Virus genome (UHGV): UHGV-0120184
DNA: 14,793 bases
Source: a virus
Reading direction: 5' to 3' (one strand)
Each line of letters starts with the position of its first letter. Position 1 is the stretch's first letter. This document shows, piece by piece, positions 1 to 14,753 of this stretch. Under the pieces are notes generated by a model that was not told the origin of the DNA, did no database searches, and worked only from the letters and a program-made list of their open reading frames with translations. Both the position numbers and the translations under genes were made by a program.

Positions 1-404
1 CCATCAGCCCGGAAAAAGCCAGAGAACTCAAAACCGCCGGGATCAACGCCTGGCGGAACAGAATGGAATCAGCCAGTTATATTTTCAGCTTTAATGGCCG
101 TAACTGGGATTATGGAAAGGAAACACAGGATCGCCTTGGCCCATCAGTTATCGCAGCAAAAGAAGGCAATCTCCCGGAGAAGTTTTTCTGGACAGACGCA
201 GACAACAACGACGTCCCCATGACTGCGGAAGAACTGATTGCGCTGAGTGAAGCCGCGCAACAGGCAATGTTCGCGAAGGGAATGGAAATTCATGTGCGCC
301 AGCGCAACATGAAAAAAGAGATTGCAGAACTTCAGGATGCGGAGGCCATTCAGCGTTACGTTGTGGGCTGGCCCACAACGGAAGAACCCGCCACCGAAAG
401 ATGA
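1..404 (+). CDS. Phage tail fiber assembly/chaperone-like protein, C-terminal part (5' end lies outside the window)
   Basis: Open frame runs from position 3 (…ISPEKARELKTAGINAWRNRMESASYIF…) to TGA at 402-404. The C-terminal pattern (…DVPMTAEELIALSEAAQQAMFAKGMEIHVRQRNMKKEIAELQDAEAIQRYVVGWP) resembles tail fiber assembly (Tfa/gpG, DUF4376-type) C-termini as I recall them. It sits beside a P2-like tail cluster. Confidence 0.55.
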   Translation, partial: ISPEKARELKTAGINAWRNRMESASYIFSFNGRNWDYGKETQDRLGPSVIAAKEGNLPEKFFWTDADNNDVPMTAEELIALSEAAQQAMFAKGMEIHVRQRNMKKEIAELQDAEAIQRYVVGWPTTEEPATER

Positions 405-412
405 ACAGCAAA

Positions 413-434
413 AACGCCCTGACACCAGGGCGTT
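413..434. terminator. Bidirectional rho-independent terminator between the convergent Tfa-like gene and gene U
   Basis: Perfect 9-bp stem AACGCCCTG / CAGGGCGTT with loop ACAC, flanked by an A-run (408-412) and ATTATTT (435-441), so a U-run follows the stem on either strand. It lies between the stop codons at 402-404 (+) and 440-442 (-). Confidence 0.6.
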
Positions 435-439
435 ATTAT

Positions 440-913
440 TTAAACCGGAATGGACAGATTATTCAGGGCACCTTTGACGTTATTCGCAAGATCACCAAGC
501 GACGAGGACTGAAGACGTTCACGCAGATCTTCATCCACACGCTCAAAAGTGACAGTAAACTCAATCTTTCTTGCCCGACCATAGCGATCAAGTTCAGAGC
601 GGGTGGTGTTAAGCCCGGTAATGACATACATCCCGTAAATCTGCCCTACCCCATCAATCAGCGGCCATGGTCGCCCGACGTAAGCCTGGCTGGTCAGTGC
701 GGTCAGGGAGACTTCACCGCCCGTAATTTCCGGGTAGAGCAAACCCGAAAGCGTGATGGTATCGTCACCCGCGCCGATATACTGCCAGCTGGCTGAGCGG
801 TTGATTCGCTCGTTCTTTACATGCCTCCAGTTACGGGACTGTTGTATTTGTTGGTATGGCAGTGTGCTTAACTGAAAAACAAACATGCCGTAAATCATCA
901 TCATAACCATCAC
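440..913 (-). CDS. U: P2 gpU-like tail protein
   Basis: 157-aa ORF (…FVFQLSTLPYQQIQQSRNWRH…DTITLSGLLYPEITGG…) matching the P2 gpU family from memory. It lies immediately downstream of the tape measure stop (916-918). Several in-frame ATGs at the 5' end (MMVMMMIYGM) leave the exact start ambiguous. Confidence 0.85.
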   Translation of the reverse strand: MMVMMMIYGMFVFQLSTLPYQQIQQSRNWRHVKNERINRSASWQYIGAGDDTITLSGLLYPEITGGEVSLTALTSQAYVGRPWPLIDGVGQIYGMYVITGLNTTRSELDRYGRARKIEFTVTFERVDEDLRERLQSSSLGDLANNVKGALNNLSIPV

Positions 914-915
914 TC

Positions 916-3747: not shown

Positions 3748-4275
3748 CGTTATGATTCCCGGTTCTGACGGCCGCCCGTTCTCGCCAGGCAACCAGTTCA
3801 CCGGGAGTCATCACAAAGATTTCAGAGGGCGACCAGTGAAATACAACGGCTATATCAGCGACAATATCTTCAACGTAATCAAAAGCAAGAAGCGTTACGC
3901 GCCGCCCGCCTCCTGCGCCTTCTTCGCTGACGAGGGAAGCAAAAAACCGACTGCCACCTCGTACAGTTTAAAGAAGTCTTCCGGGCACATTGACATAAGT
4001 GCCGCGCGGCTGAGGTGAGGTTCAGTTACGCGTTCCAGAAAAATGGCGGCAGCATCAACATCGGTGTTGAACAGGTCCGTCATGCGGATCCCTCGAAGCG
4101 AGCCCACCTGACGCGCAAGCGCCCCAATCTTCACGCTGGAAACCGTCTTATTACCGCAGACAACAGGAACCCTGAGATTAACCGTGTCATTTGCGATCGC
4201 CTCTGCGTTTTCCGTGTCGCCATTCGTCACAGCATCTGTGTCATTCGTCACGATATTTTCTTCAGTCTGATCCAT
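3740..4275 (-). CDS. E': gpE+E' fusion product made by programmed -1 ribosomal frameshift
   Basis: Minus-strand heptamer T TTT TTG (complement of 3946-3940) lies in the E zero frame (GGT TTT TTG). The -1 frame stays open from there for about 65 codons (…VTLLAFDYVEDIVADIAVVFHWSPSEIFVMTPGELVAWRERAAVRTGNHNDE) and ends at TAA 3742-3740, overlapping the tape measure ATG at 3747. This is the same arrangement as P2 E/E' and lambda G/GT. Confidence 0.6.
3895..4275 (-). CDS. E: Tail assembly chaperone gpE-like protein
   Basis: ORF between tail tube and tape measure whose C-terminal part (…GIRMTDLFNTDVDAAAIFLERVTEPHLSRAALMSMCPEDFFKLYEVAVGFLLPSS…) is gpE-like. It carries a T6G slippery site near its 3' end. 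The acidic N-terminal extension makes the true start uncertain. Confidence 0.75.
   Translation of the reverse strand: MDQTEENIVTNDTDAVTNGDTENAEAIANDTVNLRVPVVCGNKTVSSVKIGALARQVGSLRGIRMTDLFNTDVDAAAIFLERVTEPHLSRAALMSMCPEDFFKLYEVAVGFLLPSSAKKAQEAGGA
3940..3946 (-). promoter_or_regulatory. Slippery heptamer TTTTTTG for the -1 frameshift (E to E')
   Basis: X XXY YYZ motif in the zero frame of E, 15 codons before the E stop, with the -1 frame open downstream. Confidence 0.6.
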
Positions 4276-4326
4276 TATTTTTCTCCCGGGGCAACAGGAC
4301 GCCGCCCCTGTTATCAGATTTAACTA

Positions 4327-4839
4327 TCAGCCAAGCCCCAGCATGGAGCGGGTGCGGTCAGGAAGAACATCCTTACCATCAATGCGCCAGATGAAGTTCA
4401 GCACGTCGATTTCAATAACATCGCTGTTATCAACGCTGAGCTTGTACCAGGTGCATTTCATCGCATAGGTATGTTCGGTATCTTCACCCTGTTTGGCCTC
4501 GCCCTTGTCGATTTCGACAATGCGACCACGGGCTTCAATATCGACGTACTCAATCCCTTCTTCGGAATAGTATTCACCCGAGAAGCGAACACGCACGGCA
4601 TCAATACCGGCGGCGTATTTGGCAAAGATGTGACGATCGACGCCACCAACCGCAAAGGAGAGATCCAGTGCACCATCATCAAGACCGAGATCCACCGACG
4701 CAGAGCCTGGCATCCCCGCCCCGCGATACGACTCTGTTTTACGGGTCAGTTTTGGCGGGGTAAAAGACGCCACCTTGCCCAGCTTGTTGTCACCGTCCAC
4801 AAAGACGGTAAACACACGAAGTTTTTTTGGTACGGCCAT
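4327..4839 (-). CDS. FII: Tail tube protein (P2 gpFII-like)
   Basis: 170 aa with strong resemblance to P2 FII (…LGKVASFTPPKLTRKTESYRGAGMPGSASVDLGLDDGALDLSFAVGG…). GGAGG-type Shine-Dalgarno upstream. Start overlaps the sheath stop (TAATG at 4837-4841). Confidence 0.9.
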   Translation of the reverse strand: MAVPKKLRVFTVFVDGDNKLGKVASFTPPKLTRKTESYRGAGMPGSASVDLGLDDGALDLSFAVGGVDRHIFAKYAAGIDAVRVRFSGEYYSEEGIEYVDIEARGRIVEIDKGEAKQGEDTEHTYAMKCTWYKLSVDNSDVIEIDVLNFIWRIDGKDVLPDRTRSMLGLG

Positions 4840-6044
4840 TAGCTACCTCCAAGAGATGCAAAAGCAGAGCCAAAGAACTCGTCGGTAAACGTCTGATAGA
4901 GTTCCATACACTCCATCGGCGGAACAGGCGTGTATTTGTAGCGAATACGCACAATGCCCTGACGAAGACTGGTTGTGCCGTTGTCGATGATATCGAACCA
5001 GCACTCAGCCCCGATGAGTTTTCCGGCTGTCACCAGTGCATCCAGCTTTGCCTTGATAGCGCTCACGGCATCCTTAGCATTGGCAGGCGTAAGCGGTGAA
5101 TCCACTATCTGAAGTTGCGCCTCCGCAATGGTGTCAGCCAGTTGCTGCGCCGTACGTGTGTACACCTCAAAGATGTACTCCGCAGTTTCCGGCGTACGGT
5201 TACCCCAGAAACGGAAGGAGCCGTCGCCCTGGTGAATAAGAGTGGTCACCTCGCTATTGTTCAGCGTGTTGGCATCGCTGTTTTCATCCTGAAGTGACCA
5301 GGAAACAGACGCTGACACCCCAAGAACATTTTTCACAGGCATGTTAGAAAGGGAGCGATGCCAGCCCTGTTCATGGTCGAGTCGGGCACGAAGACCGCAC
5401 GCATACGCCGCAGCCGGGAAGGTTTCGTTTTTACCGGACACCGGGTTGAACGCAATGAAATCAGGCCACAGAAGCATGATTTCGCGACCGGAAATCTTTT
5501 TACGGAACGCAATAGCATCGGACGGTTTTGTGCAGCCAGGGCAGCCGGAATACGCAAATGCGCGCATTTTTCCGGCAACAGTCACCAGTGCAGCCGTGAC
5601 AGCATCCGATTCAAGGCCCGGAGCGGCAAGAATGCGGGGTCGGTAACCAATACCTTCCATCTGTTCGGCAACCAGAAGCGCCTGCATACCGCTGTAGCTT
5701 CCGTCTTCTTCCGTGGTACCAATGACCAGTTGATCCTGTGTTTTATTCTCAGCCCCCTCTTTTGCCGCCTCCACGCGAACGACAATCACCCGTGTACTGA
5801 CCTGGTCAGATATCGCTTTAAGGGCCTTATAAAGCGTGCCCGCTTTCCCGGCCTTCCCCAGAACAGAAGATACACGGGTAATCAGCACAGGCTTGTTAAG
5901 GGGGAACTGCCCGGTATCCGCATCATCTGCAACGGCAACAATACCAATGACGCTGGAATCAACGTCATTAATGGCCGTCACAAGGTCGGTATTCTCCGTG
6001 ACGCGCACACCGTGAAATCGTTTTTCAGCCATACGATTCACCAT
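4839..6044 (-). CDS. FI: Contractile tail sheath protein (P2 gpFI-like)
   Basis: 401 aa with motifs matching P2 FI from memory (HGVRV…FPLNKPVLIT…GTLYKALKAISDQ…WPDFIAFNPVSG…FRFWGNRT…YKYTPVPPMEC). The start could instead be the in-frame ATG at 6032. Confidence 0.9.
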   Translation of the reverse strand: MVNRMAEKRFHGVRVTENTDLVTAINDVDSSVIGIVAVADDADTGQFPLNKPVLITRVSSVLGKAGKAGTLYKALKAISDQVSTRVIVVRVEAAKEGAENKTQDQLVIGTTEEDGSYSGMQALLVAEQMEGIGYRPRILAAPGLESDAVTAALVTVAGKMRAFAYSGCPGCTKPSDAIAFRKKISGREIMLLWPDFIAFNPVSGKNETFPAAAYACGLRARLDHEQGWHRSLSNMPVKNVLGVSASVSWSLQDENSDANTLNNSEVTTLIHQGDGSFRFWGNRTPETAEYIFEVYTRTAQQLADTIAEAQLQIVDSPLTPANAKDAVSAIKAKLDALVTAGKLIGAECWFDIIDNGTTSLRQGIVRIRYKYTPVPPMECMELYQTFTDEFFGSAFASLGGS

Positions 6045-6107
6045 CAGTTGTGTTTATGCTCGCCTGAATAATCCACCATTGGCGCACAGCCCTCACCTGA
6101 TGCGGGC

Positions 6108-6125
6108 TGTGGGGATTTTTTTACA
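6108..6125. promoter_or_regulatory. TGT-N12-ACA dyad, candidate Ogr-dependent late-promoter activator site in the divergent FI/D region
   Basis: Exact TGT(6108-6110)-N12-ACA(6123-6125) in the 141-bp region between the FI start (6044, minus) and the D start (6186, plus). The dyad centre is about 55 bp from plausible transcription starts on either side, matching the known architecture of P2/P4 late promoters. Confidence 0.4.
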
Positions 6126-6185
6126 ACAGAGCCGGACAGAAACGACAAGGTACGCGTGGGATGATACGCACACGGGAGGGATATC

Positions 6186-7331
6186 ATGAGCATCACTGAA
6201 TCAGTAACACATCACATCAACAGCGCACTGGATGCAGCGGAAGATACCGTTAGGGTGCCAGACTTCACTATCACACTGGAAGGGAAAGATGCCAGCCTGA
6301 AGAACATCACGCAGCGCATCATGAGCCTGACCATGACAGACAACAGGGGTTTTGAGGCTGACAGGGTGACACTGGAAATCGACGACGCCGACGGCGGGGT
6401 GGTACTTCCGGAGCGCGGAACACGATTATCGCTGGCGATGGGATGGAAAGGTGAAAGCCTCACTCGCAAGGGGGCGTTTGTGGTGGACGAAGTGAGCCAC
6501 GAAGGTCCGCCGGATAAGCTGACCATATCCGCGAACAGTGCGGATTTTCGCGAAGAGTTTAACGTGAAACGCGAAGTCTCCTGGCATGACGTGACCGTTG
6601 AGCGTGTGGTATCTGCCATCGCGCACCGTTACGGACTGAAAGCACAAATCAGCGAAATGCTGATGAATATCGAAATCGACCATGCAGACCAGACAGAGGA
6701 AAGCGACATCTCGTTCCTCACGCGTATGGCTGACATGCTGGGTGCAATAACCACCGTAAAAAACGGGTGCCTGCTGTTCATTCTGCCGGGTGGCGGTGTG
6801 ACAGCCAGCGGGCGCGCCCTCCCCTCATTCGCCCTGACCCGCTCGGATGGCGACAGTCATCGCTTTCGCATTGCTGACAGAAAAGCCTATACCGGAGTGA
6901 AAGCTTACTGGCTGGATTTAAAGTTCGGCCAGAAGAAGGCCGTGAACGTGAAAAAGCGAAACGCGAAAACCACACAGAAGCCGGAGAAAAGCAGTTCACG
7001 GGAGGGTGGATACATGGAAGGCGCAGAAGGCAATGTGTATGTGCTGAGAAAAACCTACCCGAACGAAGAAGCCGCGCGTCGCGCAGCTGCCGCACGCTGG
7101 CAGCAACTTCAGCGGGGTGCAGCAGAATTCAGCATCACGCTGGCGCGCGGACGCGCCGACCTGTATCCGGAGATGCACGGCACGGTATCCGGGTTCAAGA
7201 GCGACATTGACAATCAGGACTGGATTATTTCGCGCATTGAGCACGTCATCGACGACAGCGGCTTCACCACCAGACTGGAGCTGGAAGCAAAAATCGCAGA
7301 CTGGATAGCAGAGCGCGCCACGACTGGCTAG
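6186..7331 (+). CDS. D: Phage tail protein D (P2 gpD-like late control / tail formation protein)
   Basis: 381 aa with gpD-family hallmarks (PDFTITLEGKDASLKNITQRIMSLTMTDNRGFEADRVTLEIDDADGGVVLPERG…FLTRMAD…ISRIEHVIDDSGFTTRLELE). GGGAGG Shine-Dalgarno 5 nt upstream of the ATG. Confidence 0.9.
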   Translation: MSITESVTHHINSALDAAEDTVRVPDFTITLEGKDASLKNITQRIMSLTMTDNRGFEADRVTLEIDDADGGVVLPERGTRLSLAMGWKGESLTRKGAFVVDEVSHEGPPDKLTISANSADFREEFNVKREVSWHDVTVERVVSAIAHRYGLKAQISEMLMNIEIDHADQTEESDISFLTRMADMLGAITTVKNGCLLFILPGGGVTASGRALPSFALTRSDGDSHRFRIADRKAYTGVKAYWLDLKFGQKKAVNVKKRNAKTTQKPEKSSSREGGYMEGAEGNVYVLRKTYPNEEAARRAAAARWQQLQRGAAEFSITLARGRADLYPEMHGTVSGFKSDIDNQDWIISRIEHVIDDSGFTTRLELEAKIADWIAERATTG

Positions 7332-7372
7332 AATGAGCGCGAGCCCACCCCGTTTCAGCCAGGGGGACCATC

Positions 7373-7675
7373 ATGCATCCTTGCCCATACTGCGGAGCAA
7401 GTACCCGCACCAGAACAAGCCGCGACGCCAACGATACAGGAACAATCAGGGAGAAATATTACCAGTGCAACAACATTGAATGCAGCGCCACCTTTGTGAC
7501 GCACGAGTTTGTCGTGAGAACCGTATGCCGTCCGCAACCCACCGAAGAACGGGGAGTCGTCCCCGCAGACGCTTTCAAATCATGCCACCGGGGAAGGGAT
7601 CAACTCAGCCTCCCCCTGGGCGATTGCGCCTCCCAGTCAAAAACTGTACATTACGCGCGGGTGCCTTTCGGCTGA
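7373..7675 (+). CDS. ogr: Ogr/Delta-family zinc-finger late transcription activator
   Basis: N-terminus MHPCPYCG…TSR…REKYYQCNNIECSATFVTHE has the C-x2-C…C-x4-C zinc-finger layout and close resemblance to P2 Ogr. It lies immediately downstream of D, as in P2. The C-terminal tail is longer than P2 Ogr (100 vs about 72 aa). Confidence 0.8.
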   Translation: MHPCPYCGASTRTRTSRDANDTGTIREKYYQCNNIECSATFVTHEFVVRTVCRPQPTEERGVVPADAFKSCHRGRDQLSLPLGDCASQSKTVHYARVPFG

Positions 7676-7805
7676 CGGCTGGAAGGATTACCTGAAGGCC
7701 GGATGTGGAAAGGCCCCGGAAAACATCTCTGTTTAGCCGAGGCCCTAATCTACATATCTTTAGCAAGTAGAAGGTTAGCGCCTCTTTGAAAAAGGAGCAA
7801 GCGCT

Positions 7806-7946
7806 ATGCCGCAAAAAACGATCATCGTGAGCATTTTATGCTTAACCATGTTGTTGACCGTCTGGATGATACATCGTTCACCATGTGAATTCAGACTTAA
7901 CATCATGTGGTCAGAATTTGCGGCGTTCTTGCAGTGTAAACCGTAA
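7806..7946 (+). CDS. hok: Hok/Gef/PndA-family type I toxin (small membrane peptide)
   Basis: 46-codon ORF not in the supplied track: MPQKTIIVSILCLTMLLTVWMIHRSPCEFRLNIMWSEFAAFLQCKP. It has one transmembrane helix followed by the conserved Hok-family C-E-x-R and E-x-AAF motifs and is very close to PndA as I recall it. AGGAG Shine-Dalgarno at 7793-7797, 8 nt before the ATG. Confidence 0.75.
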   Translation: MPQKTIIVSILCLTMLLTVWMIHRSPCEFRLNIMWSEFAAFLQCKP

Positions 7947-7954
7947 GAAACCGC

Positions 7955-7976
7955 AGCGGGGGTGAAAGCCCCCGCT
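7955..7976 (+). other. Stable 8-bp GC-rich hairpin in the hok 3' region
   Basis: AGCGGGGG-TGAAAG-CCCCCGCT, 9 nt after the hok stop. hok-family mRNAs carry extensive 3' structure (the fold-back inhibition element); the specific role here is inferred. Confidence 0.4.
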
Positions 7977-8040
7977 ATCCGGTTGCCGAAGGTTCGGTCG
8001 AAAGCCGCACCCGTGCATGCAAGTGACAAAGAAAAAACAA

Positions 8041-8075
8041 AGCCCGCAGCGTAAAAACTGCGGGCTTTTTTATTC
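8041..8075 (+). terminator. Rho-independent terminator closing the hok locus
   Basis: Stem AGCCCGCAG / CTGCGGGCT with an 8-nt loop, followed by TTTTTTATT; preceded by an A-run, so it could also work on the minus strand. Confidence 0.6.
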
Positions 8076-8112
8076 ACATACCGAAGGTGTGGTAACTGCC
8101 TGGGTTCAGACC

Positions 8113-8136
8113 AAAAAAAGCCCCATAAAATGGGGC
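8113..8136 (-). terminator. Candidate minus-strand rho-independent terminator
   Basis: Plus strand reads A7-GCCCCA-TAAAA-TGGGGC; on the minus strand this is a GC stem followed by a T7 run. It lies about 300 nt downstream of the minus-strand membrane-protein operon. Confidence 0.4.
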
Positions 8137-8281
8137 TGAAGATTCTGTAAGGAATTTCACAGCAATGAGATTCTAGTCTCTTCCAATGATATATGAGTCT
8201 TCAGCCTGAATCAATGGGGCATGACTGTGAATCCACCGACGATCAAAACTTGCACAATGCCTGAAGTTGAGTTAGAAAAGT

Positions 8282-8342
8282 ACCGGGCGCGATATCCGGT
8301 TTATTTTTTGTTGCTGTGTTTTGCCTCGTGCCGGATATCGCG
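8282..8342. repeat. 12-bp perfect inverted repeat CGCGATATCCGG separated by a 31-nt T-rich spacer, with a nested terminator-like hairpin
   Basis: CGCGATATCCGG at 8288-8299 and its reverse complement CCGGATATCGCG at 8331-8342. The nested hairpin ACCGG-N9-CCGGT (8282-8300) is followed by TTATTTTTTG. Confidence 0.5.
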
Positions 8343-8432
8343 TCCACCGTTTTTCTGATGATTCTTATGAAATCGTACTTTATTGATTTACTGCCATCCT
8401 GGTTTGTCTTTTTATGTTCATTATTGCGACAG

Positions 8433-8828
8433 TCATTTCCTGTTTCTGGTGATGTTTTGATAAAAGTGAAAGAATAAAACGATCATTGCAGAAGGTATTG
8501 CTAAAACCATACATATCATTATATAAACAAGATGAAAATGATATATACCATAAGACCAGAAAAAAGGTTTTTTCCAGAATGATATGGATGTGTATTTTAG
8601 TGTAATTGTTTTTGTCAGGTATATTGAACAAGGAAGAGCCAGGCCACTGAGTATCAGAAATAAGTCAACTTTTATCGATGCTTCTGTTGGTGTGTCATAT
8701 ATAAGATGCAATATGGATATTATAATGGGGCACATTCCCCACAGGATATTTTTGAAATAGAATTTCCGGTTCATATGTTTATGCTCTTTGGTTTTATCCC
8801 GGGAATTGGCGCTTTGTTTTTTATTCAT
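8433..8828 (-). CDS. Hypothetical small membrane protein (3-4 TM helices); second gene of the operon, translationally coupled
   Basis: 131-aa ORF whose ATG (8828-8826) lies 5 nt upstream of the upstream gene's stop (8823-8821), giving an 8-nt overlap. Hydrophobic segments ILWGMCPIIISILHLIY, VDLFLILSGLALPCSIYL and YGIYHFHLVYIMICMVLAIPSAMIVLFFHF. Same AT-rich composition. Confidence 0.55.
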   Translation of the reverse strand: MNKKQSANSRDKTKEHKHMNRKFYFKNILWGMCPIIISILHLIYDTPTEASIKVDLFLILSGLALPCSIYLTKTITLKYTSISFWKKPFFWSYGIYHFHLVYIMICMVLAIPSAMIVLFFHFYQNITRNRK

Positions 8829-9492
8829 GAACGTTTTCGTTGTTTAATAACCATGGGGTATTATGATTATCCTTTATTTTTGATATGTAATTGTCAATAG
8901 TGGATTTCGTTTCATTATTGTGGTTATAGTAATCATGAAGAGTGCAAAACACATCATCTTTTATTGTGGCGATTAATGGGGCTTGTGTGAGGGTAAAATA
9001 TAAAGAACGATTACTTAGTGTCCTGAAATAAATTTTTTCGCCAATGACCAGATCGGTGTTCATTATATTGTAGCCTATTTCAAATATATTGTTTGATGGC
9101 ATGTGTAATACATATGTGGGGTATTTGTTGTGTTTTTTCATTAAATAATAAATAAAATCAGATACAGGCATCTGTTTTAGTTTTTTTTGCATCTTCCTTA
9201 TGTGTTGTGACATTAATATCATTTTCGAGAGAATGCATAAGAGACTAAACAAGAGATTAAATACTATGTTCAGTACTATCAGAGTAACAAACAGGCCAAT
9301 GCTCCTTAGCGCTGAAAATATATTGTCATTGTAAATATACTGGAATGTATATCCGGCTGATAAAAATGCCAATATATATAACACTATGTCTGTTTTATTT
9401 CGCTTTTTTATTTTGTAGGTTATTGCTGATTTTAAGAATAAGATGGCAATAAGAGCAGTGATAACCCAGAAAAATATAACGGAAACTTCCAT
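8821..9492 (-). CDS. Hypothetical multi-pass membrane protein (about 3 N-terminal TM helices plus a ~130-aa hydrophilic C-terminal domain); first gene of an AT-rich two-gene operon
   Basis: 223-aa ORF in a region of very low GC compared with the flanks. Hydrophobic stretches VSVIFFWVITALIAILFL, IVLYILAFLSAGYTF and IGLFVTLIVLNIVFNLLFSLLCIL. AAAGG Shine-Dalgarno-like motif upstream of the ATG at 9492. I recognise no family. Confidence 0.6.
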   Translation of the reverse strand: MEVSVIFFWVITALIAILFLKSAITYKIKKRNKTDIVLYILAFLSAGYTFQYIYNDNIFSALRSIGLFVTLIVLNIVFNLLFSLLCILSKMILMSQHIRKMQKKLKQMPVSDFIYYLMKKHNKYPTYVLHMPSNNIFEIGYNIMNTDLVIGEKIYFRTLSNRSLYFTLTQAPLIATIKDDVFCTLHDYYNHNNETKSTIDNYISKIKDNHNTPWLLNNENVHE

Positions 9493-9690
9493 AATTATAC
9501 CTTTATCGTGTTTTCAGGGAGGTAATTTATCATTGTGCTGATATGCATGTAAATACATGCATTATCTGTTTCTTATATTCTTTTTATGAAGTTACTGATT
9601 AATTTATATTAAAACAACACATTCATAATGAAATCAACATGTTCATATGGTTGACGGCAGATTTCTCTTTTTGTTAACCTGCATCTGCAT

Positions 9691-9939
9691 TAACTGTCGC
9701 TTCGGCGACCACCAATGTTCCATAGTGGCCTGTGAGGAACGCCTTCGGGTGGCCCATGTCGCTCCGGCGACCACCAATGCTCCATATGACCTGTGAGGAG
9801 CGCCTTCGGGTGGTCAGTTTTACACCTCCGTAGCCTGAAAGGAGCTGTGAGTACTGAAGGGAAACATCCCTGATGTATGGGCAAATCTGCACACCTTTGA
9901 GAGCAGATGTCACTACGGTTTTACGTGATGATGAAGGCA
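9691..9939 (+). repeat. Direct repeat copy A (~249 bp) bounding the recombinase module; begins with two tandem ~61-nt units
   Basis: Near-identical to 12484-12733 with only a handful of mismatches. Internal tandem units at about 9695-9756 and 9757-9817, each starting with the hairpin GTCGC-T(T/C)CG-GCGAC. Confidence 0.85.
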
Positions 9940-10682
9940 TTCCGGATTCCGTTCCGGTACTTTTATTTTTTCTCAGCAGACAGGCATAAAAACGCCTTTA
10001 AAATCTGCGTCTTAAGATATTTTCTGACTTTCCGCATGAGCTTCTTATGACTGTGCGCACGGCATAAGACCATTTGAAATTTGGTCGCTTGCGTGTGCAT
10101 GTGGAGTTTGAAGCTGTGCGGCGTCACTTGCGTGCGACCGAAGGGAACACCAAGTGACGCCGCGGCCATCTGCCCTGAAGGCAGCATCACGTAAGGTCTG
10201 GCAGAAAATCGTCGCTCGTGACAAGCGTCCTGATGCTCGTTTTGTCGCTCTGACAACGTCTTTCGGTGACGTATCCACGCCTTTCCGGCGCGTCCGTTTT
10301 CACACGGACGGCCACGCCGGAATGTCTTCTTAAACTTCGTAATACATGAGAGGTAAGTGTATTAACTGACTGAAATAAAGGAATAAAAATGAAAAATCGT
10401 TCTGATGTCGGGAGGCGTCATCGTAAGGTGACGGGGAGTATTCCTCAACAATCGCCCTGGTGCACAGGTAGCGAACTCCTGTAAGAACTCAACATGTGCA
10501 AGCTCTGCTACATCGACATCAAACGAGCCAGGAAGGCGAACAACCGCGTTACAGAGCCGTCCGTGATGACGAAAAACTAACAATATCAACGAACTTTTCT
10601 GTTTACCGGAAGGGCTGCGTATGCAGTTTTACTTTGTGAACGGAAGGGGGCTGCATCTGATTTTTACAGGGAGAATGACTTT

Positions 10683-11600
10683 ATGGCCCGGAAATCGTCA
10701 CGTTCTAAAGTTGAACTGTTTCGCAAGTCTTTCATCTCACTTGCCCGTGAGTGTGGTGGCAGTTACGCAACAACAGCTGACAGAATGAGAATTGCAAAGT
10801 ACTTCCTGAATTATTTACGTGAAAATGGAATTAAACTTCGCCAGACGAGCAGTATTAAAACCAGACATATTTCTGGTTACCTTCTCAGCAGGAAAGCAGC
10901 GGGTATTTCTCACCGGACTATTCAGAATGAACGGGCGGTTATGCGTGCCATTTTAGAAAAAGATGGACGACTTAAAATCGCAGATCCTTCTAACCCATTA
11001 TTGAGTAATGAAGCGCTCGGCCTAAAGGATACATGCCGTGATGGAAAGAAAATAGCATTGTCACCGGATGAATTCTGGAAAGCATTTGCTAAAGTGGAAA
11101 AAAAGAATCCTGGTGTGGCAGCTGCAATGCAGCTTTCTTATGTTCTGGGTTTAAGAACAAAAGAAGCCGTTCAGTCATGTAAGTCTGTTCAGTCATGGCT
11201 ACGGGAACTGAATTCAGGGTGCGATTCTCTTTCGGTCGTTTTTGGTACGAAAGGTGGAAGACCAAGAAATACCACAATTATTGACAGAGATGCGGTAAGA
11301 CATGCTTTGCTTTATGCTCAAAAAATAATGGATGAACACGACGGAAAACTTATTGACCGTCCAAATATAAAACAGGCTATCAATGTTTTTCGTTATCATG
11401 CCCGTAAAGCGGGATTGTCAGGAGTGAAATCTCCGCACAGTATGCGTTATCATTTTTCTCAGGAAGCCAGAAAATTTTATCGAAAAAATGGATATGGAGA
11501 GTCGGAAATCTACGCTCGTGTTTCTATGGATCTTGGCCATGGTGACGGAAGAGGTCGTTATGTAAAACAGGTTTATTTTAACGGTTCTGATGAAAGTTGA
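10683..11600 (+). CDS. Short tyrosine-recombinase-like protein (integrase family)
   Basis: 305 aa. Catalytic-domain-like order and spacing of residues: R in LGLRTKEA, K in TKGGRPR, H-x-x-R in HSMRYH, H in LGHGDG and a C-terminal Y in RYVKQVY. N-terminal region resembles a core-binding (SAM-like) domain. Assignment is by motif reading only. Confidence 0.7.
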   Translation: MARKSSRSKVELFRKSFISLARECGGSYATTADRMRIAKYFLNYLRENGIKLRQTSSIKTRHISGYLLSRKAAGISHRTIQNERAVMRAILEKDGRLKIADPSNPLLSNEALGLKDTCRDGKKIALSPDEFWKAFAKVEKKNPGVAAAMQLSYVLGLRTKEAVQSCKSVQSWLRELNSGCDSLSVVFGTKGGRPRNTTIIDRDAVRHALLYAQKIMDEHDGKLIDRPNIKQAINVFRYHARKAGLSGVKSPHSMRYHFSQEARKFYRKNGYGESEIYARVSMDLGHGDGRGRYVKQVYFNGSDES

Positions 11601-11603
11601 TAT

Positions 11604-12341
11604 TTAAAATGAATCTGGAGGATATGTGTTTTTGTTAATTTCGGTTATGATGATTTCTGATGCGCGATTACACATATCTTCATCAAAATACCCAATATGA
11701 CATTCATGAATGTGACAATTCAGTTTTCTGGATAGCCATATATTTGCCTCGTTACGGGATATGTTGGCTCTTTGCTGATAATTGTCAAAAAGTTTACGTA
11801 CTTTTGTTCTGAGTATTCTCAGGTTTTCTTTAGCCGGAGTACCTAATGGTCTTCCTGAGTTTTTATGGCATCCAACCCATGCATTGCATGGGGGACAAAT
11901 CCAGTAATATTTGTTTTCTGTCGCGGCTGAAATGGAAAATGGCATGAGAGCCCCTTTTATAAGATTCGTCTTATTTCCACAGTATGGGCAGATAACAATT
12001 GGTCGGACATCTGCAATATTCAGTGATGTATAAGTCAGTCGTTCATTTTTAACGATGTTTCTCTTTCCGCAATGGGTGAGAACATGCTTTATTGTATCTA
12101 ATTCTTCTCGTAGTATTTTGGAACTGACGCCAGTGCGATAACGTTGTTGAAAATAGCATTCAATATGACGTAGTTTTATGCTATTTGCTGAGCTTATCTG
12201 TATATTGGCATCTTTAAGAAATGAAGCAAGTCTTCTGGCTCTTCCCGTATATACCAACATATCTTCTGGCGTCGGGGCGCATGCTTTGGCTATTCTGAGT
12301 AGTTCATCTTTTAATTTTTTGTATTTCGATTTCATTTTCAC
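11604..12341 (-). CDS. Integrase-N-terminal-like domain fused to a Cys-rich zinc-ribbon-like domain; no recombinase catalytic motifs
   Basis: 245 aa. The N-terminal ~100 aa are paralogous in layout to the neighbouring recombinase N-terminus (…SSANSIKLRHIECYFQQRYRTGVSSKILREELDTIKHVL vs …TSSIKTRHISGYLLSRKAAGISHRTIQNERAVMRAIL). The C-terminus has CPYCG…CPPC…CH…CHIHECHIG…C Cys/His clusters. It is convergent with the recombinase gene, with stops 3 bp apart. Start is GTG 12341 or ATG 12335. Confidence 0.65.
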   Translation of the reverse strand: MKMKSKYKKLKDELLRIAKACAPTPEDMLVYTGRARRLASFLKDANIQISSANSIKLRHIECYFQQRYRTGVSSKILREELDTIKHVLTHCGKRNIVKNERLTYTSLNIADVRPIVICPYCGNKTNLIKGALMPFSISAATENKYYWICPPCNAWVGCHKNSGRPLGTPAKENLRILRTKVRKLFDNYQQRANISRNEANIWLSRKLNCHIHECHIGYFDEDMCNRASEIIITEINKNTYPPDSF

Positions 12342-12483
12342 ATCTCTCTTACAGGTTCATAAAGAGTGTTACTGAATTAAAAAATATCAAATTGAGCTGG
12401 CCTTGTCAGTCAGCTGTAGGTTATTACCATAGCCACGACAACAACTTGAAGTTTTATGTTGTTTATGATTATATTTTAGACGC

Positions 12484-12733
12484 TAACTTGTCGCTCCGGC
12501 GACCACCAATGTTCCATAGTGGCCTGTGAGGAACGCCTTCGGGTGGCCCATGTCGCTCCGGCGACCACCAATGCTCCATATGACCTGTGAGGAGCGCCTT
12601 CGGGTGGTCAGTTTTACACCTCCGTAGCCTGAAAGGAGCTGTGAGTACTGAAGGGAAACATCCCTGATGTACGGGCAAATCTGCACACCTTTGAGAGCAG
12701 ATGTCACCACGGTTTTACGTGATGATGAAGGCA
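12484..12733 (+). repeat. Direct repeat copy B (~250 bp)
   Basis: Second copy of the sequence at 9691-9939 in the same orientation. Differences: one extra T near the start, T to C in the first hairpin loop, and two single-base changes near 12668 and 12707. Sequences diverge completely after ..GATGAAGGCA. Confidence 0.85.
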
Positions 12734-12866
12734 CTTTGTATACAATGTGACTATGAGTTGTCTCTGGTCTTCTTAAGCGCATCGTGCTGACGCATTGATG
12801 TGTTCACCTGACGGATTTTCCAGTCCGTCAGGGCGGAACGTCCGTCTTTTTCATTCGGAGGTTCCG

Positions 12867-13268
12867 ATGTTTATACCACTTTTGTTACGTGCAGATATGC
12901 GCATAACGCCTTTCTTTCATCTTCTCAGACAATGTCTGTTTAATCAGAAGCGTTGTGTTCACCCACAACAGCCCTGGTCCGCTCCACAACTGAGGCATCT
13001 GTACTGCACTCCGTGGTTTATTAACGCCACCGGCAATCTGTCAGTCAGAGCCTGCATTGTTTCCACCAACGGTGCATTGCGACACTGCTTTGAGTTCCGT
13101 GAAGGCTCTCACAGCCGTGAATATCGTTACTGGTTTGAGGCACTTCCGCTGTCTGTCGTGCGGTTTAATGTCTTTACCGGTCGAATATCTGCTCGCCGCA
13201 CGCTTTCTGCTGCCTCCCGTATGGCCGTGCAGCTTACTTCTTTTCGCTATCGCTTCGGTCTTCGCTGA
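12867..13268 (+). CDS. Hypothetical basic Cys/Arg/Phe-rich protein (uncertain gene)
   Basis: ATG at 12867 preceded by GGAGG (12857-12861) at 5-nt spacing; 133 codons. The composition is unusual and no family is recognised, so it may be non-coding. Confidence 0.3.
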   Translation: MFIPLLLRADMRITPFFHLLRQCLFNQKRCVHPQQPWSAPQLRHLYCTPWFINATGNLSVRACIVSTNGALRHCFEFREGSHSREYRYWFEALPLSVVRFNVFTGRISARRTLSAASRMAVQLTSFRYRFGLR

Positions 13269-13380
13269 AGCCTGTTGAACGGTCGTCATGACCGTTGAAA
13301 GGTTTATCACACAACGCCCGGATCTGTCTGACCGTACCACGCGTGCGCGATGACAAATCTGAGTTTTCCTTAACCCGTCC

Positions 13381-13417
13381 GGGACCGCTCCCGTTCGGGG
13401 ACGGTCCCGCTGTTTTT
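13381..13417 (+). terminator. GC-rich hairpin plus T-run immediately upstream of the next gene's RBS (terminator or attenuator-like)
   Basis: GGGACCG (13381-13387) pairs with CGGTCCC (13402-13408), with internal TCCC/GGGA pairing, followed by TTTTT (13413-13417) and then AGGAG (13421-13425) and ATG 13433. Confidence 0.45.
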
Positions 13418-13432
13418 ATCAGGAGATTGTTT

Positions 13433-13813
13433 ATGGGACTCGATATTTTTTTCCTTGGGCGTGATCGTGTTACCGACGCGGTAGTATCGGTACCGGAAAC
13501 GCGGGAAGTGGGTTACTTTCGCAAGGTTAACCCACTGATTGCCTGGTTTGAGACGCATTGTGGACCGGTTGAAAATGCCGTGGAGCGTCCGGTTTCCAGA
13601 ACGGAACTGGAGGCACTACTGAGCGATCTTGAATGCCTTACGCCGGAGAACTGCCGGGAATTCTTCCCCACAACAGAAGGATTCTTTTTTGGTTCTCAGG
13701 AGTATGACCAGTATTACTGGAAGGATGTTGAGATCGTGAAATCGTGGGTCAGAAGCACGCTTGATTCGTTTGATTTTGAACGAAAAATACTGTTGCTCTG
13801 GGCATGGTGGTAA
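13433..13813 (+). CDS. Hypothetical protein
   Basis: Start at ATG 13433 chosen (AGGAG 8 nt upstream) over the track's 13295, which would read through the hairpin and T-run. 126 aa ending …SWVRSTLDSFDFERKILLLWAWW. No family recognised. Confidence 0.55.
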   Translation: MGLDIFFLGRDRVTDAVVSVPETREVGYFRKVNPLIAWFETHCGPVENAVERPVSRTELEALLSDLECLTPENCREFFPTTEGFFFGSQEYDQYYWKDVEIVKSWVRSTLDSFDFERKILLLWAWW

Positions 13814-13913
13814 TTATTTTTCTGTCCTTGTTTTTAACCTTATTACCCTGTCGGGAACATGTGTCCCGTAGGGCAGGTGTGTTCCCGTAATTTTTTGTAT
13901 CTGAGGTGAACAC

Positions 13914-14393
13914 ATGAATAGTCTGTTAATACTCCTTTACGTTGTTGTATGCCGTGCCTGCACCATTCTTCGGGTAATCGCACCAGTGTCGTCTGTCCGT
14001 GCGTGGTGTGAGTATCAACTGGAAGGTATGACGATACTTCGTGATGCGTACAGCTCGCTGGCTAAGGCGGCTGGAATGCAGAATGATGCATTTGAATATC
14101 TTGAAAGTATTGCTCGTCATCTGGGCTACGAAAGCGGTGGTGACCAACTGAAATCAGGACTTTTCCGGCCGTTTCTGTGGCATATACGTGCGAAAGGCCA
14201 CAGGCTGGGAGCTGTCATGGAAATGGCGGTATGGCAGGCATGGAAGAATGGCTGTAACGATGTCTGCAATCCATGGGAGGATGTCTACAATCCATGGGAC
14301 CGTGGATGGAACGATGGCTGGACTGAATGTCTGGATCAACGTATAGCCGGTCTCCTGAAGGCGGTCTGTATTGACTTTTCCGACGCCGACTGA
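13914..14393 (+). CDS. Hypothetical protein with hydrophobic N-terminus and Trp/Asn/Asp-rich repeats (NPWED…NPWDRGWNDGW)
   Basis: 159-aa ORF with GAGGTG Shine-Dalgarno-like motif 6 nt upstream of the ATG. No family recognised. Confidence 0.5.
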   Translation: MNSLLILLYVVVCRACTILRVIAPVSSVRAWCEYQLEGMTILRDAYSSLAKAAGMQNDAFEYLESIARHLGYESGGDQLKSGLFRPFLWHIRAKGHRLGAVMEMAVWQAWKNGCNDVCNPWEDVYNPWDRGWNDGWTECLDQRIAGLLKAVCIDFSDAD

Positions 14394-14427
14394 ACGGTTT
14401 TTCTTTTACTTACTGTACCGTGTACCT

Positions 14428-14508
14428 GCGTCGGTGGCGTGGGTCAGCGATACGCTGAAGACGTTTGATTTTGAGCGTCATTCACTGGTGATGCTGGCGT
14501 TGTGGTAA
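14428..14508 (+). pseudogene. Orphan 3' fragment paralogous to the C-terminus of the 13433-13813 gene
   Basis: The translation ASVAWVSDTLKTFDFERHSLVMLALW* aligns with KSWVRSTLDSFDFERKILLLWAWW* at the end of the 13433-13813 protein. There is no start codon or Shine-Dalgarno, and it begins right after the stop of the 13914-14393 gene. Confidence 0.4.
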
Positions 14509-14600
14509 GTCCGGCCAGTCTGATTTTCGTTATTAATTTAACCGTATGGTGCATGTTCACCGTACGGGGAGCATGCATCTTTTTTATGGAGCGTGCTCTT

Positions 14601-14753
14601 ATGAAAACGAAAAAACATACTTCATGTCCCGTGAACAAAACCCCGGAGCGTGACCTGTATCAGCTGGTGACGGACAGGGTGATTGAGGCCATCGAAAAGG
14701 GCGTAGCCCCCTGGCAACGTCCATGGCGCTCAGTACGGTGTCAGCGCCAGTGA
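14601..14753 (+). pseudogene. ArdC-N-like (DUF1738-type) antirestriction protein N-terminal fragment, prematurely terminated
   Basis: MKTKKHTSCPVNKTPERDLYQLVTDRVIEAIEKGVAPWQRPW matches the conserved DLYQ-VTD-II-LE-G-PW-PW N-terminal motif of ArdC-like proteins as I recall it. The ORF stops after 50 codons and all three forward frames have stops within 14751-14770. Confidence 0.4.

What the first reader, a model, noticed from the sequence alone, without database searches (positions are those of the whole stretch)
9695..9817. Tandem ~61-nt units with conserved UUCG/UCCG-capped hairpins: possible structured RNA or recombinase target
Each direct repeat begins with two tandem units. Every unit opens with a 5-bp stem GUCGC/GCGAC capped by a 4-nt loop (UUCG, a classic stable RNA tetraloop, or UCCG) and contains a second CGCC-UUCG-GGUG hairpin. 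In unit 2 GACCACC can pair with GGUGGUC at its 3' end (7 bp). Loop and stem changes between units and between copies A and B preserve the stem. This is more consistent with a selected RNA or DNA secondary structure than with random sequence. Candidates are an sRNA gene used as an integration target, an RNA antitoxin-like repeat, or recombinase binding sites.
Basis: seen in the sequence. Interest (0 to 1): 0.5.

Follow-up and report, generated by a model that had tools for sequence, protein, structure and literature searches.

The report
Known STAXI leader RNA, two copies
The tandem hairpin units are the start of a known but functionally unexplained structured RNA (the STAXI motif, Rfam RF01728) that sits just after a promoter in front of gene sets of a conjugative genomic island in E. 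coli, so the find is real but not new.

Summary
Positions 9695-9817 hold two ~61-nt tandem units with the hairpins described, and a 99% identical copy lies at 12489. They are not a new element: both copies match the Rfam family STAXI (RF01728, 78 and 75 bits against a threshold of 40.5).

- **Fold.** Across 94 distinct homologous units, each unit is an H-type pseudoknot with strong covariation.
- **Strand.** The fold lies on the + strand: 145 G.U pairs against 6 A.C.
- **Promoter.** A near-consensus sigma-70 promoter sits at a fixed distance upstream in 71 of 75 lineages. This argues for an RNA that begins a transcript.
- **Extent.** Conservation and covariation continue past the Rfam model, through a third unit, two hairpins and a second pseudoknot. 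They end exactly where the window's 245-nt repeat ends.
- **Copy A** precedes a conserved inverted repeat, the EFASI RNA and an Integrase_1 gene.
- **Copy B** precedes a terminator and Shine-Dalgarno-masking platform, then an operon that includes ArdC.

The best reading is a cis-acting leader RNA of conjugative-island establishment genes; its trigger is unknown. Recombinase target, antitoxin repeat and single-stranded DNA element are poorly supported. Novelty: already known. Interest: modest.

The parts
9651..9679 (+). Predicted sigma-70 promoter of copy A: -35 TTGACG 9651-9656, 17-nt spacer, -10 TTAACC 9674-9679. Inferred, not demonstrated.
   Evidence: Read. It lies at the position where 71 of 75 distinct homologous upstream regions have their best promoter match (-10 ends 30-35 nt before CCAAUG). 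The -10 here is weak, so the consensus scan did not list it.
9695..9939 (+). STAXI RNA copy A, whole conserved RNA and first arm of the 245-nt direct repeat. Unit 1 9695-9757, unit 2 9758-9818, degenerate unit 3 about 9819-9882, hairpin H4 9885-9908, hairpin H5 9909-9929, 3' strand of the second pseudoknot 9933-9937.
   Evidence: Rfam RF01728 match 9695-9868, 78.2 bits, E 2.4e-15. Repeat. Covariation of the units, of the 3' domain.
9717..9740 (+). Pseudoknot stem of unit 1: GUUCC 9717-9721 pairs with GGAAC 9736-9740. It crosses stem P2 (GGCC 9727-9730 with GGCC 9751-9754). In unit 2 the equivalent is GCUCC 9779-9783 with GGAGC 9797-9801.
   Evidence: helix 28-32 with 47-51 is 98.9% paired, and 4 of 5 pairs show changes on both sides.
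9942..9975 (+). Terminator-like hairpin CCGGA/TCCGG followed by a T-rich run after copy A.
   Evidence: Not conserved in other loci of the same class, so its role is uncertain.
10118..10163 (.). Conserved 13-bp inverted repeat GCGGCGTCACTTG ... CAAGTGACGCCGC with a variable apical mini-hairpin, lying between STAXI-A and EFASI.
   Evidence: the stem sequence is nearly invariant in 11 loci, including two small plasmids. Function unknown.
10397..10525 (+). EFASI RNA motif (Rfam RF02957).
   Evidence: 72.3 bits against a threshold of 51.2. EFASI was found 440-620 nt 3' of STAXI in 9 of 9 loci with an integrase downstream, and at none of the 9 loci whose STAXI is followed directly by a small gene; in 4 integrase loci that also carry a second, gene-proximal STAXI copy, that copy has no EFASI of its own.
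10683..11600 (+). Tyrosine-recombinase-like gene (Pfam Integrase_1 PF12835 plus Phage_int_SAM_2).
   Evidence: E 3.6e-53. Annotated 'integrase domain-containing protein'.
11604..12341 (-). Gene for a protein with a Phage_int_SAM_2 N-terminus and a DUF3268 zinc finger.
12446..12475 (+). Predicted sigma-70 promoter of copy B: TTGAAG, 18 nt, TATATT. Unrelated in sequence to the promoter of copy A.
   Evidence: It resembles the promoter of the second STAXI of SGI-4, and the strain 2013C-3033 copy has the same hexamers.
12489..12733 (+). STAXI RNA copy B, second arm of the direct repeat.
   Evidence: Rfam match 12489-12662, 75.5 bits. 99% identical to copy A.
12807..12869 (+). Expression platform after copy B. 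Hairpin A 12807-12832. Overlapping terminator-like hairpin 12830-12848 plus a U run. Hairpin 12834-12866 that pairs the Shine-Dalgarno GGAGG 12857-12861. AUG 12867.
   Evidence: minimum free energy -35.3 kcal/mol, z = -5.25. The same architecture occurs in 33 homologous leaders.
12867..13268 (+). First gene after copy B (133 aa, no family match). It starts a run of 12 same-strand genes that includes ArdC in the near-identical E. coli S19-651 island.
   Evidence: annotation; window coordinate = L001 coordinate - 3001..

Best explanation
The units are the 5' part of a STAXI RNA (Rfam RF01728), an RNA of about 245 nt. It starts about 10 nt downstream of a sigma-70 promoter.

**Fold.** It consists of a 5'-terminal hairpin (P1), two H-type pseudoknot units, a third degenerate pseudoknot unit, and a 3' domain of two hairpins locked by a second pseudoknot.

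**Setting.** The window lies in an integrative conjugative element of the SPI-7/PAPI-1/SGI-4 type. Such elements carry about three of these RNAs. Each is the leader of a transcription unit for functions that handle incoming or single-stranded DNA:
- STY4534(DUF3577)-ssb;
- the ArdC anti-restriction operon;
- EFASI-Integrase_1.

**Proposed mechanism (inferred).** STAXI acts in cis as the common sensor or operator domain of these leaders. In copy B a downstream platform can form either an intrinsic terminator or a hairpin that masks the ribosome-binding site. Expression from the strong promoter is therefore off by default, until an unknown factor acting on the leader relieves it.

**Shown and not shown.** Shown: family membership, fold, strand, promoter position, gene context, alternative pairings. 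Inferred: regulation in cis. Unknown: the identity of the trigger.
For: - **Family.** Rfam matches of 78.2 and 75.5 bits against a gathering threshold of 40.5.
- **Fold.** Pseudoknot, P2 and P3 are 98.0% paired against 82.9% in shuffles, with 241 double-change cells against 67. P1 has 23 different complementary stems in 75 units. The 3' domain is 95.8% paired against 86.0%, with 259 double changes against 67.
- **Strand and molecule.** 145 G.U pairs against 6 A.C. The C(UUCG)G loop occurs in 89 of 94 units.
- **Promoter.** -35 is TTGACN in 63 of 75 regions. The -10 ends 30-35 nt before CCAAUG in 71 of 75, although the spacer sequences are unrelated.
- **Gene context.** Same-strand genes follow at fixed distances: about 195-270 nt to DUF3577 or small genes, and about 736-870 nt to Integrase_1. 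SGI-4 has three sense-strand leaders, in front of STY4534-ssb, ArdC and Integrase_1.
- **Platform.** The Shine-Dalgarno-pairing hairpin has z scores of -3.3 to -5.4. When the Shine-Dalgarno-to-AUG stretch is held open, the alternative fold shown for the 11 leaders printed was, in most of them, a long hairpin; a directly adjoining U run is evident for the short-platform leaders such as L005.
- **Transcripts.** RNA-seq intervals at STAXI just 3' of topB in Pectobacterium (PMC4710047). RT-qPCR signal in E. coli vesicles (PMC12370729).
Against: - No experiment shows regulation, and no ligand or partner is known.
- On small ColE1-type plasmids STAXI and EFASI are not followed by a same-strand protein gene. 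There the RNA cannot be a leader of a coding gene.
- Copy A is followed by a terminator-like site, which fits a free-standing small RNA.
- The Shine-Dalgarno-pairing test is weak: 83% of shuffles also pair the Shine-Dalgarno sequence.
- Rfam types the family as an sRNA gene.
- The promoters are consensus matches, not mapped transcription starts.
Confidence: 0.6

Rival explanations
1. STAXI is a free-standing trans-acting small RNA, as Rfam types it. It would be made from its own promoter, ended by termination or processing near 9940-9975, and would act on other RNAs or titrate a protein through its repeated units.
For: - Own promoter.
- Terminator-like site after copy A.
- STAXI with EFASI sits on small plasmids with no downstream same-strand gene.
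- Repeated similar units resemble protein-sponge RNAs.
- Both copies within one island are kept near-identical while alleles differ between islands. That would suit a matched trans partner.
- RNA detected in vesicles.
Against: - The terminator after copy A is not conserved in other loci.
- In most loci a same-strand gene follows at a fixed distance, with a structured platform in between.
- No target complementarity was identified.
Confidence: 0.25
2. The structure forms in single-stranded DNA during conjugative transfer or replication. It would be a single-strand origin, a priming site or a single-strand promoter, as Weinberg et al. considered possible.
For: - Neighbouring genes act on single-stranded DNA: ssb, DUF3577, ArdC, topB.
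- Several copies per island share one orientation.
- The motif sits on small, possibly mobilisable plasmids.
- A nearby conserved inverted repeat with a GAA-triloop mini-hairpin looks DNA-like.
Against: - A conventional double-stranded promoter at a fixed distance points to transcription of this strand.
- G.U pairs are frequent, and one is nearly invariant.
- The C(UUCG)G loop stabilises RNA but not DNA (argument of PMC2864571).
- The folding strand is the sense strand of the downstream genes. An F-plasmid-type single-strand promoter would need the template strand.
Confidence: 0.08
3. The repeats are recombination or integration sites. The 2794-bp segment between them (EFASI, the Integrase_1 gene and the zinc-finger gene) would be a cassette moved by the recombinase.
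For: Direct repeats flank a recombinase gene. STAXI is statistically associated with integrase genes.
Against: - None of 5426 complete E. coli genomes has the one-repeat junction.
- The two-copy arrangement is ancestral: SGI-4 has it with diverged copies, 90% identical over 179 nt.
- The repeat ends coincide with the ends of the RNA.
- Covariation shows selection on a folded single strand.
- The same RNA precedes ssb and ArdC operons.
Confidence: 0.03
4. The tandem units are a type III antitoxin-like RNA array, or the region encodes the annotated 88-aa protein on the opposite strand.
For: Tandem pseudoknot-forming repeats recall ToxI. NCBI's annotation pipeline (PGAP) calls a hypothetical protein over copy A in strain S19-651. 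Opposite-strand frames are often open.
Against: - No toxin or defence family in the window's neighbouring genes; representative first downstream genes of other loci gave only DUF3577 or no Pfam family.
- The units are only about 87% identical and differ by compensatory changes rather than being homogenised copies.
- The open frame has no conserved phase relative to conserved anchors (39/24/16), and the anchor spacing modulo 3 is 30/21/20.
- No protein family matches the 88-aa product.
Confidence: 0.02

Closest known systems
STAXI RNA motif (Rfam RF01728; Weinberg et al. 2010, Genome Biol 11:R31)
   Same: Both copies pass the curated threshold over the full model (positions 1-153). They show a pseudoknot repeated two to three times, occur in an enterobacterial host, and have integrase and anti-restriction neighbours.
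   Different: Nothing that excludes membership. In this copy the second unit carries its own P1 hairpin, which is an insertion relative to the model. The conserved RNA also continues about 70 nt beyond the model: hairpins H4 and H5 and a second pseudoknot, supported by covariation.
EFASI RNA motif (Rfam RF02957; 'Enterobacteriaceae, Frequently Around STAXI and Integrases')
   Same: It is present 458 nt downstream of copy A and 158 nt upstream of the Integrase_1 gene, the published arrangement.
   Different: It is a different RNA, not part of the finding. It occurs only after the STAXI copy that precedes the integrase.
Leader RNAs with terminator/antiterminator and ribosome-binding-site-masking platforms (attenuators, riboswitch expression platforms)
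   Same: A promoter-proximal structured domain is followed by mutually exclusive hairpins. One ends in a U run and one pairs the Shine-Dalgarno sequence.
   Different: No ligand, protein or tRNA partner is known, and switching has not been shown.
Phage T4 gene 32 mRNA leader pseudoknot (own knowledge, not tested here)
   Same: A 5' pseudoknot lies in the leader of a single-stranded-DNA-binding-protein gene. It is a precedent for coupling expression to the amount of free single-stranded DNA.
   Different: There is no sequence or family relation, and binding of any island protein to STAXI is untested.
Single-strand promoters and initiation sites of plasmid leading regions (F plasmid Frpo/ssi; own knowledge)
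   Same: The location is in front of ssb and anti-restriction genes of a conjugative element.
   Different: Frpo is a long DNA hairpin that mimics a promoter on the template strand. STAXI folds on the sense strand and has an ordinary promoter upstream.

Membership tests
STAXI RNA (Rfam RF01728) | Covariance-model score at or above the curated gathering score (40.5 bits) | tested here: met
   78.2 bits (9695-9868) and 75.5 bits (12489-12662), full model 1-153, + strand only.
STAXI RNA (Rfam RF01728) | [quoted passage not shown] | tested here: met
   Units 1 and 2 each have the crossing helices: 9717-9721 with 9736-9740 plus 9727-9730 with 9751-9754, and 9779-9783 with 9797-9801 plus 9788-9791 with 9812-9815. 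The degenerate unit 3 has CUCC 9826-9829 with GGAG 9841-9844. Covariation.
STAXI RNA (Rfam RF01728) | Enterobacterial host and neighbourhood of ssb, topoisomerase, anti-restriction or integrase genes | tested here: met
   The window is 99.7% identical to an E. coli chromosome island. An Integrase_1 gene lies downstream of copy A and ArdC downstream of copy B.
STAXI RNA (Rfam RF01728) | It is an RNA (transcribed) | tested here: inconclusive
   Supported by the conserved promoter position, the G.U bias and published RNA-seq and RT-qPCR in other strains. There are no expression data for this locus.
Type III toxin-antitoxin RNA array (ToxI-like) | Near-identical short tandem repeats followed by a ToxN/AbiQ-type endoribonuclease gene | tested here: not met
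   The units are about 87% identical. No such family in the window's flanking genes with Pfam, PADLOC or NCBIfam; six representative first downstream genes of other loci were scanned with Pfam only.
Single-strand DNA promoter or initiation site (Frpo/ssi/sso type) | The structure forms on the strand that serves as template or is transferred, and no conventional upstream promoter is needed | tested here: not met
   The fold is on the sense strand (G.U 145 against A.C 6). A conventional promoter is conserved upstream. Which strand is transferred could not be tested.
Recombinase attachment or cassette site | Sites mark the ends of a segment that is present or absent between genomes | tested here: not met
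   None of 5426 genomes has the one-repeat junction. Diverged copies in the same positions in SGI-4.
Protein-coding gene on the opposite strand (annotated hypothetical protein WP_016237203.1) | Conserved reading frame across homologues | tested here: not met
   The frame phase relative to conserved anchors is spread 39/24/16 and 20/27/24. No family match.

The most novel reading that the evidence does not exclude
STAXI would be the shared RNA operator of an 'establishment regulon' of SPI-7/SGI-4-type conjugative islands. An island-encoded single-stranded-nucleic-acid-binding protein (for example DUF3577/STY4534, SSB or ArdC) would bind the repeated pseudoknots and keep the terminator and Shine-Dalgarno-masking platforms closed. 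It would be titrated away by single-stranded DNA during transfer, so the strong promoters fire only in donors or new recipients. This is the logic of T4 gene 32 autoregulation applied to a whole island. Small plasmids that carry STAXI-EFASI would then be decoys or hitch-hikers on this circuit. The near-identity of the copies within one island, against divergence between islands, would reflect matching to the island's own factor.
Probability: 0.12. Interest if true: 0.7.

Novelty: already known. Interest (0 to 1): 0.3.

Why it matters
As an identification it changes little, because the motif has been in Rfam since 2010. STAXI is still an orphan, however: no function has been assigned.

The comparative results here narrow the options.
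- It is the start of a transcript made from a strong promoter.
- It is larger than the curated model.
- It heads the three transcription units of a conjugative island that deal with incoming single-stranded DNA.
- It is followed by what looks like a terminator or ribosome-binding-site switch.

These islands carry metal and drug resistance (SGI-4) and virulence genes. If the leader gates their establishment genes, it would be a control point of island transfer and a testable case of RNA-level control of conjugation.

Tried and rejected
Counted on 94 units and no better than shuffles.
- **Tandem Repeats Finder.** It did not report the 61-nt array. The units were confirmed by alignment instead.
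- **Single-sequence folding.** It gave only modest z scores, -2.8 for the + strand and -2.4 for the - strand, and cannot tell the strands apart. The G.U against A.C count did.
- **Integration cassette.** A synthetic one-repeat junction query found no genome with it.
- **Opposite-strand gene.** Frames are often open but have no conserved phase.
- **Type III antitoxin and defence context.** No matches.
- **Shine-Dalgarno masking as a statistic.** All 33 leaders pair the Shine-Dalgarno sequence, but so do 83% of shuffles. Only the conserved architecture and the z scores are used.
- **RNAalifold on the downstream platform.** It recovered only two conserved hairpins with little covariation.
- **Literature.** Searches for STAXI and EFASI found only the discovery paper and two descriptive studies. 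No origin of transfer for this island family was found in the reviews consulted.
- **Not done.** Metagenome and viral collections were not scanned. No structure prediction or large protein searches were needed.

Full report
**1. What is in the sequence**

Positions 9695-9817 hold two head-to-tail units of 62 and 61 nt that align at about 87% identity. The units begin a 245-nt segment (9695-9939) that recurs at 12489-12733 with 99% identity, 2794 nt downstream. Folding the single sequence gives only a modest signal (z = -2.8 on the + strand, -2.4 on the - strand). The case rests on comparison with homologues.

**2. Identity**

A scan of the window against Rfam 15 at the curated thresholds gave three matches:
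- STAXI (RF01728) at 9695-9868, 78.2 bits, E 2.4e-15.
- STAXI at 12489-12662, 75.5 bits. The gathering score is 40.5.
- EFASI (RF02957) at 10397-10525, 72.3 bits against 51.2.

[quoted passage not shown] It lies near genes for single-stranded-DNA-binding proteins, topoisomerases, anti-restriction proteins and XerDC-type integrases. The authors left open whether it acts as RNA or as single-stranded DNA, and favoured RNA because of the UUCG loops (PMC2864571). EFASI stands for 'Enterobacteriaceae, Frequently Around STAXI and Integrases'. The finding is therefore an instance of a known family whose function is unknown.

**3. The fold, tested on homologues**

One pattern scan of 185,579 species genomes returned 104 stretches. 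Nearly all come from Enterobacterales: Erwinia, Pantoea, Serratia, Kluyvera, Citrobacter, Pectobacterium, Edwardsiella, Xenorhabdus and others. About a dozen hits came from unrelated phyla; the six of these that matched the relaxed unit pattern all fail the pairing test, which makes them useful negative controls.

On 94 distinct units (alignment A2) I counted three helices. The pseudoknot pairs the G plus four bases after CCAAUG with the five bases after CUGNGA. Stem P2 crosses it, and hairpin P3 carries the UUCG loop. The results:
- 98.0% of cells are paired, against 82.9% in shuffles (0 of 500 shuffles reach it).
- Only 33-49% are paired when the 3' partners are slid by 1-3 columns.
- 241 cells change on both sides, against 67 expected.

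In the window the pseudoknot is GUUCC 9717-9721 with GGAAC 9736-9740 in unit 1, and GCUCC 9779-9783 with GGAGC 9797-9801 in unit 2. The two tandem units thus differ by a compensatory U-A to C-G change. Stem P2 differs by G-C to A-U.

The opening hairpin P1 is present in all 75 units that have room for it, with 23 different complementary stems. Its loop is not conserved (UUCG in 12 of 75).

**4. Strand and molecule**

In the paired columns there are 145 G.U or U.G pairs and 6 A.C or C.A pairs. Leaving out one nearly invariant G.U, the count is 56 against 6. The structure therefore forms on the + strand and could not form equally on its complement. The P3 loop is UUCG closed by C-G in 89 of 94 units; its first two bases were fixed by my search pattern and the last two were free.

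**5. A conserved promoter**

In 75 distinct upstream regions the best sigma-70 match ends 30-35 nt before CCAAUG in 71 cases, which is 13-17 nt before P1. The -35 hexamer is TTGACN in 63 cases. The spacers and flanks are unrelated between lineages, and the opposite strand scores lower.

In the window:
- Copy A has TTGACG 9651-9656 and a weak -10, TTAACC 9674-9679.
- Copy B has TTGAAG 12446-12451 and TATATT 12470-12475.

The two promoters are unrelated, and the 245-nt repeat begins a few bases after the predicted start. STAXI is therefore the 5' end of a transcript. This fits the RNA-seq intervals at STAXI just 3' of topB in Pectobacterium (PMC4710047) and the RT-qPCR signals for STAXI and EFASI in E. 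coli vesicles (PMC12370729).

**6. The RNA is longer than the curated model**

Conservation continues 3' of the Rfam model. The features in order:
- a third, degenerate pseudoknot unit;
- hairpin H4 (window 9885-9908) with a conserved loop, ..CCUUUG..;
- hairpin H5 (9909-9929);
- the sequence GAUGAAGG, whose GAAGG pairs with the H4 loop to form a second pseudoknot (9894-9898 with 9933-9937).

On 67 sequences (alignment A3) these helices are 95.8% paired against 86.0% in shuffles (0 of 500) and 36-48% when slid. There are 259 double-change cells against 67, including U-A to C-G and A-U to G-C changes in the second pseudoknot. The window's 245-nt repeat ends exactly at this point. The repeat is one complete RNA, not an arbitrary duplication.

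**7. Context**

- **Source of the window.** Positions 7639-14738 are 99.7% identical to part of an integrative conjugative element in E. coli S19-651. That element carries TIGR037xx transfer genes and TraG.
- **After copy A.** A 740-nt non-coding stretch follows. It holds a nearly invariant 13-bp inverted repeat (10118-10163) and EFASI. Then comes an Integrase_1/Phage_int_SAM_2 gene at 10683-11600.
- **After copy B.** Twelve same-strand genes follow, including ArdC.
- **Across other loci.** The next same-strand gene lies either about 195-270 nt away (DUF3577, or small proteins with no family) or about 736-870 nt away (Integrase_1). EFASI lies between STAXI and the integrase in 9 of 9 loci of the second kind. 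It is absent at 9 of 9 loci of the first kind.
- **A complete relative.** The Salmonella island SGI-4 has three STAXI RNAs, all in the sense orientation. They lie between topB and STY4534(DUF3577)-ssb, before EFASI-Integrase_1, and before the ArdC-DUF1281-methylase operon.
- **Small plasmids.** STAXI plus EFASI also occur on small ColE1/Rop-type plasmids of 5.6 and 6.2 kb. These plasmids have no integrase and no same-strand gene downstream.

**8. What follows copy B**

In 33 leaders of the first kind a conserved platform lies between STAXI and the start codon. In the minimum-energy fold a hairpin A is followed by a hairpin that pairs the Shine-Dalgarno sequence (z scores -3.3 to -5.4 for six examples). 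When the Shine-Dalgarno-to-AUG stretch is kept single-stranded, the 5' arm of hairpin A pairs instead with the anti-Shine-Dalgarno segment in most of the 11 leaders printed. In the short-platform leaders such as L005 this long hairpin runs directly into a U run, which makes an intrinsic terminator; in the long-platform leaders the U run lies 4-6 nt further on.

In the window:
- hairpin A is 12807-12832;
- the overlapping terminator-like hairpin is 12830-12848, followed by five U;
- the Shine-Dalgarno GGAGG 12857-12861 is paired within 12834-12866;
- the AUG is at 12867.

The simple count 'Shine-Dalgarno paired in 33 of 33' is weak, because 83% of shuffles also pair it. RNAalifold found little covariation here. 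I therefore treat the platform as suggestive, not proven.

**9. The direct repeat**

No complete E. coli genome (0 of 5426) carries the junction expected if the segment between the repeats were lost or not yet inserted.

In strain 2013C-3033 the promoter regions show the same hexamers as in the window, and the flanks (the integrase module and the region downstream of copy B) are 97-99% identical to it. Both STAXI copies there are nevertheless a different allele, 79% identical to the window's and with three canonical units. They are again 98% identical to each other over 269 nt, from about the transcript start to the end of the RNA. In SGI-4 the two copies are only 90% identical over 179 nt.

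The two-copy layout is therefore old. In E. coli the transcribed part alone is homogenised within an island, either by gene conversion or by selection for matching copies. I cannot tell which.

**10. Explanation**

I think the most likely reading is a cis-acting structured leader RNA shared by the island's transcription units for single-stranded-DNA handling, anti-restriction and a second recombinase. It would hold strong promoters in check through the downstream platform until some factor acts on it (confidence about 0.6; family identity about 0.97). The trigger is unknown.

The main rival is a free-standing small RNA (about 0.25). It is favoured by the small-plasmid copies and by the terminator-like site after copy A. 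The other rivals are each contradicted by tests above:
- single-stranded DNA element (about 0.08);
- recombination site (about 0.03);
- antitoxin array or opposite-strand gene (about 0.02). The annotated 88-aa opposite-strand protein has no conserved frame and no family match.

**11. Verdict**

The element is already known (RF01728). Three results go beyond the Rfam model and the papers held in the library searched here, as far as I could check. They are the fixed promoter, the 3' domain with a second pseudoknot, and the terminator and Shine-Dalgarno-masking platform. They make the orphan motif easier to test. I score interest as modest.

Noticed in passing
window 10118-10163: A nearly invariant 13-bp inverted repeat, GCGGCGTCACTTG ... 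CAAGTGACGCCGC, with a variable apical mini-hairpin (CCGAAGG here; GCGAAGC or CGCAAAGCG elsewhere). It lies between STAXI-A and EFASI and is conserved in islands of many genera and on small plasmids that lack the integrase. GAA-type triloops are typical of stable DNA hairpins. It may be a DNA-level site such as an origin of transfer or a single-strand initiation site.
   Followed up: partly
window 9695-9939 and 12489-12733; L110 2180-2448 and 5011-5279: The two STAXI copies are homogenised within an island (98-99% identical) but differ between closely related islands (79%), although the flanks are 97-99% identical and the promoters show the same hexamers. The converted tract matches the transcribed RNA. 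Either gene conversion or selection for matching copies would explain this.
   Followed up: partly
window 1-8074 and 7639-8074: The first 8 kb are P2-like prophage tail genes (99% identical to many E. coli prophages). From 7639 onward the window matches the conjugative island. The two matches overlap by about 435 nt, which include a hok/gef toxin gene (7806-7946 by transfer of annotation). The window thus spans a mosaic junction, possibly made by recombination at a hok locus.
   Followed up: no
window 9674-9940, minus strand: NCBI's annotation pipeline (PGAP) calls an 88-aa hypothetical protein (WP_016237203.1) antisense to STAXI copy A in a near-identical genome. The open frame has no conserved phase in homologues and no family match, so it is probably an annotation artefact caused by the RNA gene.
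   Followed up: yes
L002 1607-2309; L003 4204-4869; contigs L009, L015, L019, L030, L048, L083: STAXI with its own promoter, plus EFASI, sits on small (5.5-7.7 kb) plasmid-sized replicons of Pantoea, Cronobacter, Enterobacter and others. For the two annotated records (L002, L003) these are ColE1/Rop-type plasmids with a DUF2442 gene and a convergent HTH_17 gene alongside, and no integrase or relaxase. They may be hitch-hikers on the conjugative islands.
   Followed up: partly
window 12800-12869 and 33 related loci: A conserved leader platform follows STAXI. Hairpin A, a long alternative hairpin (followed at once by a U run in the short-platform leaders) and a Shine-Dalgarno-pairing hairpin share one segment that can pair with two others. 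No Rfam family matched it.
   Followed up: partly
window 13743-13813 and 14438-14508; 14259-14299: A 71-nt stretch is repeated at 70% identity at the 3' ends of two neighbouring small genes, which suggests paralogous C-termini. A perfect-looking 21-nt tandem duplication (2 copies, 95%) lies inside the gene at 13914-14393.
   Followed up: no
E. coli O157:H7 and other Shiga-toxin-producing E. coli genomes (hits H46-H71): Hundreds of these genomes match window 9312-9751 at about 91% identity. That stretch covers the upstream gene, the promoter and only the first STAXI unit, and similarity then stops. STAXI alleles seem to be swapped at unit boundaries.
   Followed up: no
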